Made by a program: the position numbers and the translations under genes. This document shows positions 7,283-10,595 of a stretch of 10,595 bases of DNA, in pieces; position 1 is the stretch's first letter; every line of letters starts with the position of its first letter. A model generated the notes under the pieces. The model was given only the letters and a program-made list of their open reading frames with translations. It ran no database searches and was not told the origin of the DNA. Origin of the DNA: a virus (taxonomy: Duplodnaviria > Heunggongvirae > Uroviricota > Caudoviricetes); IMG/VR virus record IMGVR_UViG_2740892219_000002; one strand, given 5' to 3'.

Positions 7283-9194
7283 TCACTCCTCCGGACAGCT
7301 TCGCTGCCAGTTCTTTCAGGGTTGGCCGGGTCGTCTCTTCTTCCCGGGATTTTGCCAGTACAGCCAGATCAAGCTGCCAGCGTTGCACGGACACACGTAA
7401 TGCCGCGTAGGCATACACCAGGCAGTCCAGCGCTTCGTTACGCCGCTTTTTGTTATCCCACAGCAGACGCATCTTTCCTTTTTCCCACTTCTCCACAAGC
7501 TCTTCCGCGACCAGTTGCTGCGCCTCTGTCTGCGAAAAAATCTCCGGATCATCAGGAAAACGGATGGCATACGACGTGGATTCATCCGCAGGCGTGGGAG
7601 CGGCTTTCATACGGGCATAGAGAATTTCTTTTGCGGTGTCTGTCCCCACTTCACACAGATACACACCCCGCTGATTGCGGGTTTTTGGCATGGTGATCAC
7701 CGGCTTGCCATAGACAGATGCGCCTTTTACCGGCAGCACCCGGAAAACACCGTGTTTTTTTGACCTCTGATAAACGATTTCGCCATCGATCCCCCCGATG
7801 TCCCAGCAGACACGGGAAATGGTCATTTCGGTTCCGTCTGCATGGCGGTATTTTTTGTTGATCGCCGCATCCACACGTAACAGCGTCTCTTCCTCATCGG
7901 GACGTCCCATAATGATGATTTTATCCACCAGAAAGGCTTCCTCTCCCGGAGCCCATCCCCAGACATACATCTCAAAACGGTTTCGCTGCGAGTCAATGCC
8001 CGCCGTCAGATAAACCACCCGGGCTGGCACCGCCGCCGTGTAATGCACAACCTTATCCATCAGTACCTGGTGATCGAGTTTTTCGCCCACGGCCTCTTCC
8101 CAGGTCTCGCCCAGCGTGGTGTTAACAAAAGTTTTCAGACCGTTGGGATCTTTCAGTGCATCCAGCCAGTCATAGACAATCTGTACCCAGGTGGTGAACG
8201 GACTGTACGCCGTCCAGATATGGAAAGTGATGGAGCGCGGCGGCGGAATTTCATCCCCCCGGGCGCTGAAAAACATCAGGCCGTCACGGGTCCACATGCT
8301 CGTGTTTTCACAGATCCACCGCCCGTTACTCTGGTCAAGCTCAGACTGATGGATCACACAGCCATGATGCTCACAAAGGTAGAAAACACTTTCTGGCTTA
8401 TTCTTCTCCCACTTAAGACCGAAAGGCGAGGCATCATCGCCAAATTTCAGATACTGCGCCTCCCCACAGTGCGGACAGGGCACGTAAAAACGCATGAAAT
8501 GTGCCGACTCGTTAGCGGCTTTTTCGATCTGGCAGGAGCCTTTGATTTTAGGCGTCGAGCCGCGAATGGATTTTGGCCATACAGAGCCCTCAATACGTTT
8601 ATCCCCCAGCAGGGTTGGCGACCCCTCTTTTTCAACATCCGGTTCGAACGAGGAAAGCTCGTCATAACAGACCACATCCACGGATTTTTCACGGTAGTTT
8701 TTGGCGGCAGCGCCGCCCAGGCACCAGAAGCCCACACCCGATGAAAAGCGTTTCAGCGTGAGAGTATTGTCACGATGTTTACGACCCAGCCATGGGGAAA
8801 GGTCTTTCAGGCATGGCACGTCCCGAATCGTCGCCTCCACGTGAGACTTCATAAAATCTTCAGCGGCAGAATCCGTGGGCTGAAAAAGCAGACTGTTTCG
8901 GGATTTATGCTCAATAAAATACCCGACCACCCCCAGCAACATCTTTGTATAGCCAACACGGGCAGATTTAATCAGATTAACAGTGCGGATCTGATCATTC
9001 CCCATACTGTTCATGATGGCGATCTGGAATGGCAGCGTTTTCCATTCGCCGTCACCGTATGAGGATTCTTTAGGCAGATAATAATTTTGATCAGCCCATT
9101 CAACTGCCGTCATCGGTACAACCCTGACCAGAGGCTGCAGCGCAACCGAAACGGCAGCCATCATATTATTCAGTTGTTGCTCTGATATATTCAT
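7266..9194 (-). CDS. A: Terminase large subunit, lambda gpA-like (642 aa). Start placed at the ATG at 9194.
   Basis: Extensive conservation with lambda gpA as I recall it (TAVEWADQNYYLPKESSY, KSARVGYTKMLLG, HVE.TIRD, KHRDNTLT.KRF, FWCLGG.AAKNYREKSVDV, FLGDKRIEGSVWPKSIRGSTPK, HFMRF.V.CPHCGE.QYLKFGD, YLCEH..CVI.Q.ELD, FHIWTAYSPFTTWVQIV, FVNTTLGETWE, YLTAGIDSQ, GKPV..MP, KKRRNEALDC.VYA.AALR). Length from 9194 is 642 aa against 641 for lambda. Overlaps the end of the Nu1 homologue by 29 nt, as lambda Nu1/A overlap. Confidence 0.93.
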   Translation of the reverse strand: MNISEQQLNNMMAAVSVALQPLVRVVPMTAVEWADQNYYLPKESSYGDGEWKTLPFQIAIMNSMGNDQIRTVNLIKSARVGYTKMLLGVVGYFIEHKSRNSLLFQPTDSAAEDFMKSHVEATIRDVPCLKDLSPWLGRKHRDNTLTLKRFSSGVGFWCLGGAAAKNYREKSVDVVCYDELSSFEPDVEKEGSPTLLGDKRIEGSVWPKSIRGSTPKIKGSCQIEKAANESAHFMRFYVPCPHCGEAQYLKFGDDASPFGLKWEKNKPESVFYLCEHHGCVIHQSELDQSNGRWICENTSMWTRDGLMFFSARGDEIPPPRSITFHIWTAYSPFTTWVQIVYDWLDALKDPNGLKTFVNTTLGETWEEAVGEKLDHQVLMDKVVHYTAAVPARVVYLTAGIDSQRNRFEMYVWGWAPGEEAFLVDKIIIMGRPDEEETLLRVDAAINKKYRHADGTEMTISRVCWDIGGIDGEIVYQRSKKHGVFRVLPVKGASVYGKPVITMPKTRNQRGVYLCEVGTDTAKEILYARMKAAPTPADESTSYAIRFPDDPEIFSQTEAQQLVAEELVEKWEKGKMRLLWDNKKRRNEALDCLVYAYAALRVSVQRWQLDLAVLAKSREEETTRPTLKELAAKLSGGVNGYSR

Positions 9195-9675
9195 CGAGTA
9201 AATCCGGTAATTTATCCCCTGCCCGCGCACACTGATTTGCCCCCTTCGCAATAAGGGTTTTCAGATGGTCAAGATGGCGCGGTGTTAAATCAGGAAACTG
9301 TCGCTGCATGGATAAAGGGATGGAATCAAGCGTACTGGATAACGCCATTGCCAGCTTACTGAGGGCAAAAATACAGAATCCGGTGTCAATAAGCTTTCCT
9401 TCGGACGCCTGATTTTTTAATTGCTGGGCGATTGCCTGTTCTTCGATCAACTTCCATCTGGCAATGAGTAACTTTTCTTCATAGTCGTCTTCGCTATCGC
9501 CATCAGGCACATCGTTTTTACTTCTCCTCAGATACGATATGTAAAAATCACGCCAGGCATCCAGATCCAGTTGTCCTCGCTTATTCGAGACCGGAGCACC
9601 CGGCAATTTCTGCAATCTGCGAAGCTGGCGATCGGTCAGACTCAAATGCCTGGCAACTTCAGTCTGCGTAGCCAC
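9166..9675 (-). CDS. Nu1: Terminase small subunit, lambda gpNu1-like (169 aa). Apparent GTG start at 9675.
   Basis: C-terminal half aligns with lambda Nu1 as I recall it (ETAFC.F.LS...IAS.LD.IPLS.QR.FP.L..RH.D.LK, then ..LP.LL.EYI). The N-terminus has a helix-turn-helix-like segment (EVARHLSLTDRQLRRL). The ORF begins 195 nt from the cos end (lambda: 191). GAGG lies 6 nt upstream of the GTG. The N-terminal region is diverged from lambda. Confidence 0.82.
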   Translation of the reverse strand: MATQTEVARHLSLTDRQLRRLQKLPGAPVSNKRGQLDLDAWRDFYISYLRRSKNDVPDGDSEDDYEEKLLIARWKLIEEQAIAQQLKNQASEGKLIDTGFCIFALSKLAMALSSTLDSIPLSMQRQFPDLTPRHLDHLKTLIAKGANQCARAGDKLPDLLDEYIRATTE

Positions 9676-9722
9676 TCCTCACCTCGCAAAAACTCTTACC
9701 TCACAATCAGCACAAAACCGGT

Positions 9723-9821
9723 CATGTCCGGTTTATATGTCTATTTTTTGCGCATGTCCGGTTCACGGAAAACCTGTTTTTATATTTTTTATGTAGTTAA
9801 CTTGCAGAGAAACCGGACATG
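9723..9821 (-). promoter_or_regulatory. cosB-like region containing three copies of an 11-bp element, CATGTCCGGTT: direct at 9723-9733 and 9753-9763, inverted at 9811-9821. Candidate small-terminase binding sites, analogous to lambda R1, R2 and R3. The A/T-rich stretch between the second and third copies may be an IHF bending site.
   Basis: Repeats seen directly. Arrangement (one inverted copy nearest cosN, A/T-rich spacer, two direct copies, then the Nu1 start) mirrors the lambda cosB layout (established knowledge). I did not find a clean IHF consensus (WATCAANNNNTTR) by eye. Confidence 0.55.
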
Positions 9822-9858
9822 GTTCCCGGAAAATTTTCATAAATAGCGAAAAACCGCG

Positions 9859-9870
9859 AGGTCGCCGCCC
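9859..9870 (-). other. cosN cohesive-end sequence. On the minus strand this reads GGGCGGCGACCT, identical to the 12-nt single-stranded end of lambda DNA.
   Basis: Plus strand 9859-9870 is aggtcgccgccc (seen). The reverse complement of 9826-9870 reads GGGCGGCGACCTCGCGGTTTTTCGCTATTTATGAAAATTTTCCGG, matching the beginning of the lambda genome as I recall it over about 45 nt with one difference. Located 184-195 nt upstream of the Nu1 start, as in lambda. Confidence 0.85.
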
Positions 9871-9945
9871 CGTAGCCTGCCGGATCGCTGGAAAGGACCC
9901 AGCTACTAGCGAATGCCAGTAGCCAAGGTGGGCTGCGGGCTTAAT

Positions 9946-10191
9946 TTAAAGCGGTGTGATTTGCAACCATTCAGACGCACTAATCTCAAAGCGACGTCCG
10001 TTAGACAACTCGATAATCACGGGTAATTCACCTAGCTCCAGCCAGGCGTTTTTTTCCGTTGGAAAACTAACAGTAGAGATCTGGTAATCCAATACGCTTT
10101 CAGCCAGTCGGCAACTTTTAAACACATCACCAAGGGCGGACGCGAAGAATACATTTAGCTCATATTCAATCTGCTCTTTAGCAGCTGTCAT
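9946..10191 (-). CDS. Hypothetical 81-aa protein, the last gene before cos (phage right end). Function unknown; not recognised.
   Basis: Uninterrupted 81-aa ORF with protein-like, acidic composition and no obvious transmembrane segment. Same strand as the late genes. Ribosome-binding site is weak (GAG about 9 nt upstream). The segment looks AT-richer than the structural genes by eye. Confidence 0.5.
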   Translation of the reverse strand: MTAAKEQIEYELNVFFASALGDVFKSCRLAESVLDYQISTVSFPTEKNAWLELGELPVIIELSNGRRFEISASEWLQITPL

Positions 10192-10323
10192 GTTTCTGTC
10201 TCATCAACTTGAATAGGGTAATCAGGAATGGATGCGAACTACAGGTCGTCTGCACCATCTTTCAGATTAAAGCAGCGCCACATTTCGTCAGGGTCAGTAT
10301 TAGCCGACATCTCGTGCACCTGA

Positions 10324-10434
10324 TTAATGTTTGGCGATATTACAACAGGCGTTCAATGAATGCATATTGTAAGCCTCTCGCTCAGGAGAACAGAATCGTT
10401 CCATTATTGAATTAAATTTCTGCGACTCTTTCAT
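10324..10434 (-). CDS. Hypothetical small protein (36 aa, MKESQKFNSIMERFCSPEREAYNMHSLNACCNIAKH) with a near-consensus ribosome-binding site.
   Basis: AGGAGG at 10445-10440 lies 5 nt upstream of the ATG at 10434-10432. The ATG overlaps the TGA of an upstream ORF (TGATG), a typical translational-coupling junction. Too short to judge on composition. Confidence 0.3.
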   Translation of the reverse strand: MKESQKFNSIMERFCSPEREAYNMHSLNACCNIAKH

Positions 10435-10595
10435 CACAACCTCCTGACAAATATACCGTGCGACCGTGGTCGCACGCTCCTGAATACATGCCCTGTTTCT
10501 TCCACCCTCGCACAGGACTGGCGAGCATGAGGGACAAACCCGCGAATCATTAGCGCGGTAAAAACCCGGTGTGCATCGTTTTTGATTATTTCCGC
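10434..10595 (-). CDS. 3' end of an ORF that enters from beyond the window edge (C-terminus ...AEIIKNDAHRVFTALMIRGFVPHARQSCARVEETGHVFRSVRPRSHGIFVRRL), stop TGA at 10436-10434. Identity unknown.
   Basis: Minus-strand frame is open from the window edge to the TGA that overlaps the start of the 36-aa ORF. Coding status is uncertain: the composition is Arg-rich and could be a chance open frame. Confidence 0.2.
   Translation of the reverse strand, partial: AEIIKNDAHRVFTALMIRGFVPHARQSCARVEETGHVFRSVRPRSHGIFVRRL
10458..10475. promoter_or_regulatory. Perfect 8-bp inverted repeat with a 2-bp spacer (GTGCGACC-GT-GGTCGCAC), immediately upstream of a TATATT -10-like hexamer (minus strand, 10455-10450) and the AGGAGG site. 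Operator-like.
   Basis: Palindrome and -10-like hexamer seen directly. No good -35 hexamer at 17-bp spacing. Function is inference. Confidence 0.3.

What the first reader, a model, noticed from the sequence alone, without database searches (positions are those of the whole stretch)
9871..10595. Small-ORF segment at the phage right end, next to cos: candidate moron or accessory cargo
Everything from cos downward is a conventional head-tail module, but the roughly 725 bp on the other side of cosN looks different. It appears AT-richer by eye and carries same-strand small ORFs I cannot place in any family: an 81-aa acidic protein (9946-10191), a 36-aa ORF with a near-perfect ribosome-binding site (10324-10434), and an ORF entering from beyond the window. 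A 23-aa ORF (MSANTDPDEMWRCFNLKDGADDL, 10239-10310) in the gap is probably noise. In lambdoid phages the region between the lysis cassette and cos commonly holds morons (lysogenic-conversion, exclusion or defence-type cargo), so this is where an undescribed function is most likely to sit. I cannot assign one from sequence alone.
Basis: partly seen in the sequence, partly recalled or inferred. Interest (0 to 1): 0.6.

Follow-up and report, generated by a model that had tools for sequence, protein, structure and literature searches.

The report
Rare small phage gene beside cos
The last 725 bases of this lambda-like phage genome are a patchwork of swapped-in DNA that holds one real gene, for a small acidic protein of unknown function that moves between unrelated temperate phages, while the other small reading frames are leftovers of a truncated gene and of two non-coding elements.

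Summary
Window 9871-10595 is the right end of a lambda-type genome: late genes are on the minus strand, the cosN 12-mer is at 9859-9870, and GC is 47% against 55% in the head-tail module.

The 81-aa acidic ORF (9946-10191, minus) is under purifying selection (dN/dS 0.13-0.31) and belongs to a tiny family with no Pfam, PHROG, NCBIfam, PADLOC or fold match. It travels with a terminator hairpin. In about ten phage contexts with five terminase types it lies between the lysis genes and the small terminase gene.

- The 36-aa ORF is the retained start of a truncated 286-aa gene (phrog_2571).
- The 23-aa ORF lies inside a decayed tRNA-like element.
- The "entering ORF" is a widespread non-coding linker.

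No promoter was found, so this is cargo of the late operon rather than a strict moron. Its function is unknown; an anti-defence or host-takeover binder is my best guess (about 0.3).

This is a new member of a known kind, of modest interest. The intact tRNA-like RNA family found in related phages is the more unusual by-product.

The parts
9859..9870 (-). cosN cohesive-end 12-mer (GGGCGGCGACCT). It lies just outside the finding and defines the genome end at 9871.
   Evidence: Exact match on the minus strand.
9871..9900 (-). Right arm of cos, with the 7-mer GGGTCCT (9894-9900) that I take to be cosQ. This is the last block shared with lambda-type phages.
   Evidence: blastn shows 9826-9900 shared with lambda-type loci, and homology ends exactly at 9900. 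The lambda right end reads ...GGGTCCTTTCCGGTGATCCGACAGGTTACG. cosQ is a conserved 7-bp site needed to terminate packaging (PMC4669245). That this 7-mer is cosQ rests on my memory.
9902..9923 (-). Nine-pair hairpin (GCTACTGGC-ATTC-GCTAGTAGC). It is the stem of the cassette's intrinsic terminator, with the T-tract replaced by cosQ.
   Evidence: Homologs carry the same hairpin followed by a T-run and score as terminators. The window stem is kept by a compensatory C-G to T-A change. It is not scored as a terminator in the window.
9946..10191 (-). The only real gene: an 81-aa acidic protein with no signal peptide or membrane segment seen by eye. Its family is undescribed.
   Evidence: dN/dS is 0.13-0.31 against loci at 72-74% identity and 0.16 within the E. 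coli group. NCBI's pipeline annotates it as WP_000122986.1. There are 18 clusters in 5.8 billion proteins. The AF2 model has pLDDT 83. No family or fold match was found.
10216..10325 (-). Decayed copy of a roughly 125-nt tRNA-like element. Both acceptor strands survive; a 15-nt deletion removes half of the T stem. The 23-aa ORF (10239-10310) lies inside it.
   Evidence: Alignment with the intact copy at L012 6846-6970. The window copy folds no better than shuffles, z = -0.8. The 23-aa ORF stops after 10 codons in L012, L021 and L023.
10324..10434 (-). 36-aa stub ORF. Codons 1-19 (10378-10434) are the start of a phrog_2571 gene; the rest is read-through into unrelated DNA.
   Evidence: Window 10379-10595 matches L003 2501-2717, where a 286-aa gene starts at the corresponding ATG. 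PHROG match to positions 1-23 of 291; the full gene scores 6.7e-164. pN/pS is 0.67, with variable sites spread 4:3:3.
10440..10476 (-). Leader left over from the truncated cassette: Shine-Dalgarno AGGAGG (10440-10445) and an 8-pair palindromic hairpin (10457-10476).
   Evidence: It is shared only with loci that carry the phrog_2571 start.
10481..10595 (-). The 3' 115 nt of a roughly 190-nt conserved non-coding linker that continues beyond the window.
   Evidence: Found in 3424 of 5426 E. coli genomes. Found in 591 phage records, including lambda 46868-46974 and Stx phages. Copies differ by 1-2-nt indels and the ATG is not conserved. The consensus fold favours the late strand.

Best explanation
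The segment is a stack of recombination products in the accessory slot between the lysis genes and cos of a lambda-type temperate phage.

Reading in the direction of late transcription, it contains:
1. the tail of a widespread non-coding linker;
2. the leader, ribosome-binding site and first 19 codons of a truncated cargo gene (phrog_2571);
3. a decayed tRNA-like element;
4. an intact compact cassette, consisting of a gene for an 81-aa acidic cytoplasmic protein plus its terminator hairpin, joined directly to cosQ.

Shown: the mosaic boundaries; that the 81-aa ORF is a gene under purifying selection; that its family is rare and moves between phages with different packaging machinery; and that the other ORFs are not conserved as coding sequence.

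Inferred:
- The gene has no detectable promoter of its own and lies on the late strand. It is most likely expressed late, by antiterminated read-through from the late promoter (about 0.6).
- Its terminator would keep it silent or insulated otherwise.
- Its product most likely acts as a small stoichiometric binder of a host or competitor protein, that is, as a counter-defence or host-takeover factor rather than a virion or packaging part (about 0.3).
For: Anatomy:
- blastn boundaries: 9826-9900 is the cos core; 9901-10207 is shared with L006 and L007 at 76-79% identity; 9901-10363 with L012 at 72%; 10379-10595 with L003.

The 81-aa ORF is a gene:
- dN/dS is 0.13-0.31, with differences biased to third codon positions.
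- Within the E. coli group pN/pS is 0.16. The ORF is the least diverged block: 1.4% against 2-4.7% in the flanks.
- Homologs are 79-87 aa long and share invariant motifs.
- The structure model is confident: pLDDT 83, pTM 0.71.

The cassette is mobile:
- It sits between the lysis cassette and the small terminase gene, on the same strand, next to Nu1/GpA, DUF1441/GpA, Terminase_4/TerL with or without HNH, Terminase_2/3 and Sf6_terminase modules.
- Only 2 of 5426 complete E. coli genomes hold the whole 725-bp segment.
- A hairpin or terminator follows the gene in the homolog loci examined.

Late expression:
- The gene is on the late strand, and no sigma-70-like promoter was found upstream in five loci.

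Binder or anti-defence role:
- The protein is acidic and I see no signal peptide or membrane segment in it.
- It occurs with many different virion modules.
- An Acb2/Tad1 anti-defence gene lies two genes upstream in L006 and L007.
Against: - The anti-defence link is thin. Acb2 is present only in L006 and L007, whose Acb2 copies are 95% identical, so this is effectively one independent context out of about ten.
- Three distant homologs (38-45% identity) sit inside head-tail modules, between the capsid and tail-terminator genes. That leaves room for an assembly-related role.
- The promoter scan is a simple consensus search and could miss a weak or non-sigma-70 promoter.
- The window's ribosome-binding site is weak (GAG only) compared with homologs.
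- A frameshifted 52-aa variant exists on 6 contigs, so the gene is dispensable in some hosts.
- No expression data were available.
Confidence: 0.6

Rival explanations
1. The 81-aa gene is a classical moron. It would be transcribed from its own promoter in the lysogen and would benefit the host, for example through exclusion of other phages or lysogenic conversion.
For: - The segment is AT-richer than the structural genes.
- It occupies the slot where bor-type morons sit in lambda and DLP12-like prophages.
- Homologs have a dedicated terminator.
- A non-coding spacer of at least 100 nt precedes the gene in most loci.
Against: - No sigma-70-like promoter was found upstream in the window, L006, L012, L013 or L015.
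- I see no signal peptide, lipobox or membrane segment, unlike bor, lom and cor (from my knowledge of those proteins).
- It matches none of the PADLOC defence models.
Confidence: 0.15
2. The protein is a dispensable helper of DNA packaging or head-tail assembly, which would explain why it sits beside terminase or connector genes.
For: - It lies directly upstream of the small terminase gene in L197, with a 34-nt gap.
- It lies inside head-tail modules in L016, L198 and L200.
- It is always on the late strand.
Against: - It occurs with five terminase types and three portal families. Near-identical proteins (96-100%) sit next to different Nu1 alleles.
- It is absent from nearly all lambdoid prophages: 2 of 5426 E. 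coli genomes carry it.
- Other genes often separate it from the terminase genes.
- It has no fold similarity to known connector or packaging proteins.
Confidence: 0.15
3. The 81-aa ORF is a chance open frame in non-coding right-end DNA.
For: An ATG-started ORF of at least 81 aa arises in 15% of shuffles of the segment. No family match was found.
Against: - Full-length homologs reach down to about 40% identity, with conserved length and motifs.
- dN/dS is well below 1, with saturated synonymous sites.
- The structure model is confident.
Confidence: 0.02

Closest known systems
Morons of lambdoid phages (the Hendrix/Juhala sense; for example lambda bor and lom, HK97 gp15)
   Same: - An extra gene inserted between conserved late-operon modules.
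- Lower GC than its neighbours.
- A dedicated intrinsic terminator in homologs.
- Patchy distribution among otherwise related phages.
- The same slot between the lysis genes and cos as bor.
   Different: - No promoter of its own was detected.
- It is on the same strand as late transcription, whereas bor is antisense.
- The product appears cytoplasmic rather than an envelope protein.
- The window copy has lost the terminator T-tract.
Small phage anti-defence proteins found in accessory regions (for example Acb2/Tad1 sponges and anti-CRISPRs)
   Same: A small acidic soluble protein from a rare, fast-moving family. It is carried in a variable accessory region, and once lies two genes from an Acb2/Tad1 homolog.
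   Different: It has no sequence or fold similarity to Acb2, Tad1 or any solved structure. No activity has been tested. The neighbourhood association rests on one independent context.
phrog_2571 (286-291 aa phage protein of unknown function, for example XSB42772.1 of Escherichia phage PhiR46_1)
   Same: The 36-aa ORF shares its leader, Shine-Dalgarno sequence, ATG and first 19 codons with this gene.
   Different: It is truncated after codon 19 and continues into unrelated DNA. It cannot be a functional member of the family.
tRNA genes (Rfam RF00005)
   Same: The intact relatives of window 10216-10325 have a 7-bp acceptor stem, a canonical T arm (GGTTCGAATCC) and a 3' ACCA.
   Different: They are about 125 nt long, with no standard D or anticodon arm. 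ARAGORN at default settings does not call them, and the Rfam tRNA model matches the T arm only (12.5 bits against a threshold of 29). The window copy lacks half of the T stem.

Membership tests
Moron (an autonomous promoter-gene-terminator unit inserted in a phage operon) | An extra gene present in some phages and absent in other, closely related ones, at a module junction | tested here: met
   The whole segment is in 2 of 5426 E. coli genomes, while its flanks (cos core and linker) are widespread.
Moron (an autonomous promoter-gene-terminator unit inserted in a phage operon) | An intrinsic terminator directly downstream | tested here: inconclusive
   Canonical terminators follow the gene in L006, L012 and L013. 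In the window only the hairpin remains (9902-9923); the T-tract is replaced by cosQ.
Moron (an autonomous promoter-gene-terminator unit inserted in a phage operon) | Own promoter directly upstream | tested here: not met
   No sigma-70-like site on the gene's strand in the window, L006, L012, L013 or L015. This was a consensus scan only.
Moron (an autonomous promoter-gene-terminator unit inserted in a phage operon) | Expression from the repressed prophage | not testable with these tools
   This needs RNA-seq or Ribo-seq of a lysogen.
Acb2/Tad1-type anti-defence sponges (PF24729) | Sequence or profile match to the family | tested here: not met
   No Pfam hit at E <= 1. The neighbouring 97-aa gene in L006 scores 4.8e-18 against PF24729; the 81-aa protein does not match it.
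Acb2/Tad1-type anti-defence sponges (PF24729) | Fold similarity to solved anti-defence proteins | tested here: not met
Known anti-phage defence proteins (PADLOC models) | Profile match | tested here: not met
   No match for the 81-aa protein or for seven neighbouring cargo proteins.
phrog_2571 (for the 36-aa ORF) | Full-length match to the 291-position profile | tested here: not met
   Only profile positions 1-23 match, at E = 0.04. The intact gene scores 6.7e-164. DNA homology ends at 10379.
tRNA (for 10216-10325) | Cloverleaf recognised by ARAGORN or the Rfam tRNA model | tested here: not met
   No call in the window. The intact L012 copy is called only with relaxed thresholds plus a 30-nt intron. 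Rfam matches the T arm only.

The most novel reading that the evidence does not exclude
The 81-aa protein founds a new family of phage counter-defence or host-takeover factors. It would be made late in infection and would neutralise, by direct binding, a host immunity protein common to Enterobacterales. That would explain why it moves as a self-contained cassette between phages with unrelated virion and packaging modules. Its invariant but poorly modelled C-terminal peptide (ASEW-QIT) would be the binding motif.
Probability: 0.25. Interest if true: 0.6.

Novelty: new member of a known kind. Interest (0 to 1): 0.38.

Why it matters
The slot between the lysis genes and the terminase genes is a known cargo site in temperate phages. 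This window shows it in layers: one live gene on top of the remains of earlier cargo, pushed right up against cosQ.

The live gene belongs to a small family that no database describes. The family is under purifying selection and moves between phages of Escherichia, Enterobacter and Edwardsiella. That makes it a reasonable, low-cost candidate for anti-defence screens.

Work on the flanks also turned up two conserved RNA-like elements in late operons: a roughly 190-nt linker present in most E. coli genomes, and a roughly 125-nt tRNA-like RNA. Neither is in Rfam. Both may be of wider interest than the gene itself.

Tried and rejected
- Family searches for all the small ORFs in Pfam, PHROGs, NCBIfam and PADLOC gave nothing. 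The exceptions were the stub's match to phrog_2571 and a sub-threshold GlgB_N hit on the frame-1 fragment (E = 0.0076, 16.8 bits against a cut-off of 27), which I dismissed.
- tblastn of the 81-aa protein against the phage and plasmid collections found no match.
- An HMMER profile search of 1.84 billion representative proteins found only four true clusters. Two further hits (P0014, P0015) are repeat or TPR proteins, which I judged spurious.
- A PDB sequence-profile search gave nothing below E = 0.1.
- Rfam scans of the window, L001 and L012 found no family.
- I tested whether the 289-aa gene downstream of the homolog in L012 is the same family as the stub's parent gene. It is not.
- Literature searches for the protein accession, for anti-defence genes in this slot and for a tRNA-like RNA in this position found nothing relevant.
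- I considered whether the tRNA-like 3' end is an attachment-site remnant and rejected it, because the matching 5' acceptor strand is also present and conserved.

Full report
**Where the segment sits.** The window is a lambda-type head-tail module read on the minus strand. It contains Nu1 (9166-9675), gpA, W, portal, the C protease, D, E, FII and the tail tube protein. Its GC content is 0.473, against 0.553 for the structural genes, and this is lower than any 725-bp window within them. The 81-aa product is acidic (pI 4.4), and the 36-aa ORF has AGGAGG 5 nt upstream of its ATG. One caveat: an ORF of this length arises in 15% of shuffles of the segment, so it means nothing by itself.

**Mosaic structure.** Only 2 of 5426 complete E. 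coli genomes hold the whole 725 bp, while parts of it are in thousands of genomes. blastn against the fetched loci splits the segment into blocks:
- 9826-9900 is the cos core shared with lambda-type phages. It ends exactly at the 7-mer GGGTCCT (9894-9900), where lambda's own right-end homology also begins.
  - cosQ is a conserved 7-bp site needed to terminate packaging (PMC4669245).
  - That this 7-mer is cosQ is from my memory.
- 9901-10207 is shared at 76-79% identity with two metagenomic phage contigs (L006, L007). 9901-10363 is shared at 72% with an Enterobacter soli prophage (L012).
- 10379-10595 is shared with Escherichia phage PhiR46_1 (L003) and many others.

To the left of 9826 none of the relatives matches. 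The window's cosB and the N-terminal part of its Nu1 belong to a different specificity type.

**The 81-aa ORF is a gene.**
- NCBI's pipeline annotates it as hypothetical protein WP_000122986.1 in both matching E. coli genomes.
- Searches of 5.8 billion protein clusters give 18 clusters, all 79-87 aa except one truncated copy, reaching down to about 40% identity. They share invariant motifs: FGD-F-S, LE-G, IEL-NG--F, ASEW-QIT.
- A profile search without a word index over 1.84 billion representatives adds nothing beyond four clusters.
- Against homologs at 72-74% identity, dN/dS is 0.13-0.31, with differences concentrated at third codon positions.
- Among nine E. coli-type copies pN/pS is 0.16. 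The ORF is also the least diverged block of the segment.
- AlphaFold gives a confident small alpha+beta model: pLDDT 83, pTM 0.71, with an N-terminal helix packed on short strands. The invariant C-terminal peptide is the least confident part.

**How the gene travels.**
- In the window, L001/L002, L006, L012, L013, L014, L015, L017, L022, L196 and L197, the gene lies on the late strand between the lysis cassette and the small terminase gene.
- Those terminase modules are of five types: Nu1/GpA, DUF1441/GpA, Terminase_4/TerL with or without HNH, Terminase_2/Terminase_3, and Sf6_terminase/Terminase_3.
- Hosts include Escherichia, Enterobacter and Edwardsiella.
- Three distant homologs sit inside head-tail modules instead.
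- A hairpin follows the gene in every homolog locus examined for this. It is a canonical intrinsic terminator in L006, L012 and L013.
- In the window the nine-pair stem survives at 9902-9923, maintained by a compensatory C-G to T-A change. Its T-tract has been replaced by cosQ, so the cassette was joined as close to cos as function allows.
- No sigma-70-like promoter precedes the gene in any of five loci scanned.

This fits cargo of the late operon that is read through under antitermination. It does not fit a strict promoter-gene-terminator moron.

**The other ORFs are not genes.**
- *The 36-aa ORF.* It shares its leader, Shine-Dalgarno sequence, ATG and first 19 codons with a 286-aa gene of PhiR46_1, a full-length member of phrog_2571.
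  - Homology stops at 10379, and the frame runs on until the TAA at 10324-10326.
  - Its ten variable sites fall 4:3:3 over codon positions, with pN/pS 0.67. It is a stub of earlier cargo.
- *The 23-aa ORF.* It lies inside the decayed tRNA-like element and is cut to 10 codons in L012, L021 and L023.
- *The frames open to the window edge.* They lie in a roughly 190-nt linker, of which the window holds 10481-10595.
  - It is present in 3424 of 5426 E. coli genomes and in 591 phage records, including lambda 46868-46974, HK022 and Stx phages.
  - It is always between the lysis or bor genes and the terminase genes.
  - Conserved copies differ by 1-2-nt indels, the candidate ATG is not conserved, and the genome annotations are inconsistent. 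It is therefore non-coding.

**Function.** What can be said is by exclusion and context.
- The protein is soluble, acidic, rare, dispensable in some hosts (a frameshifted copy exists), and independent of the type of virion module. That argues for a target in the host rather than in the phage.
- An Acb2/Tad1 anti-defence gene lies two genes upstream in L006 and L007. The two Acb2 copies are 95% identical and no other locus has one, so this is weak evidence.

I commit to late expression by read-through (about 0.6) and a role as a binder for counter-defence or host takeover (about 0.3). The alternatives are a lysogen-expressed moron (0.15) and a dispensable assembly helper (0.15).

**By-products.**
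- *tRNA-like RNA.* Upstream of the homolog in L012 is an intact element of about 125 nt, with a 7-bp acceptor stem, a canonical T arm and a 3' ACCA.
  - The same element occurs in at least 30 viral contigs, as 13 intact variants.
  - It is always on the late strand, downstream of the endolysin gene and upstream of the small terminase gene.
  - 96.6% of cells pair, against 29-47% when partners are slid. Five pairs show changes on both sides, against 1.3 in shuffles.
  - ARAGORN calls it only with relaxed thresholds and a 30-nt intron, and Rfam sees only the T arm.
  - The copies were retrieved with a fixed 16-mer, so the invariance of the acceptor and T arms is partly by construction.
- *Linker.* It also folds better on the late strand, with many G-U pairs and five pairs changed on both sides.

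**Verdict.** The gene is a new member of a known kind (cargo of the late operon) with unknown function. Interest is modest.

Noticed in passing
L012 6846-6970 (intact); window 10216-10325 (decayed); also L148, L150, L152, L159, L162, L163, L167, L169, L177, L178, L180, L195: A conserved tRNA-like RNA of about 125 nt, with a 7-bp acceptor stem, a canonical T arm, a 3' ACCA and a long covarying hairpin. It lies on the late strand between the endolysin and small terminase genes of many temperate enterobacterial phages. It is not in Rfam, and ARAGORN at default settings does not call it. It could be an odd tRNA, a decoy or an RNA-processing signal in the late transcript.
   Followed up: partly
window 10481-10595, continuing beyond the window (L001 6612-6800; lambda 46868-46974): A non-coding linker of about 190 nt, found in 3424 of 5426 E. 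coli genomes and in 591 phage records with unrelated terminases. It always lies between the lysis or bor genes and the packaging genes. Its consensus fold is much better on the late strand, with G-U pairs and some covariation. It is duplicated on both sides of the cargo in PhiR46_1 (L003 835-933 and 2619-2717), as expected for a recombination anchor.
   Followed up: partly
window 9676-9858 and 9166-9675: The cosB side differs from lambda. There are three copies of a CCGGACATG-type motif at about 9725-9830, and the Nu1 protein matches the Pfam Nu1 model only in its C-terminal part. None of the loci sharing the right end shares this side, so the recombination point lies inside cos, near 9826.
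   Followed up: no
window 10457-10476: A perfect 8-pair palindrome (CGTGCGACC-ACGG-TCGCACG) in the leader of the truncated phrog_2571 cassette. Other copies carry the reverse-complement centre (GTGG). It could be a terminator remnant or an operator.
   Followed up: no
L006 8407-9060 and L012 7408-8277: Downstream of the 81-aa homolog, just before the terminase genes, L006 and L012 carry proteins of 217 and 289 aa. Both have a domain like the lambda tail-tip protein J (PF09327), far from any tail module. L188 and L195, which have the tRNA-like element but no 81-aa homolog, carry a relative of the L012 protein just downstream of that element.
   Followed up: no
P0010 (52 aa, 6 contigs): A frameshifted, truncated copy of the 81-aa gene, identical to the window protein for 46 residues. 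Some carriers have therefore lost the gene's function.
   Followed up: no
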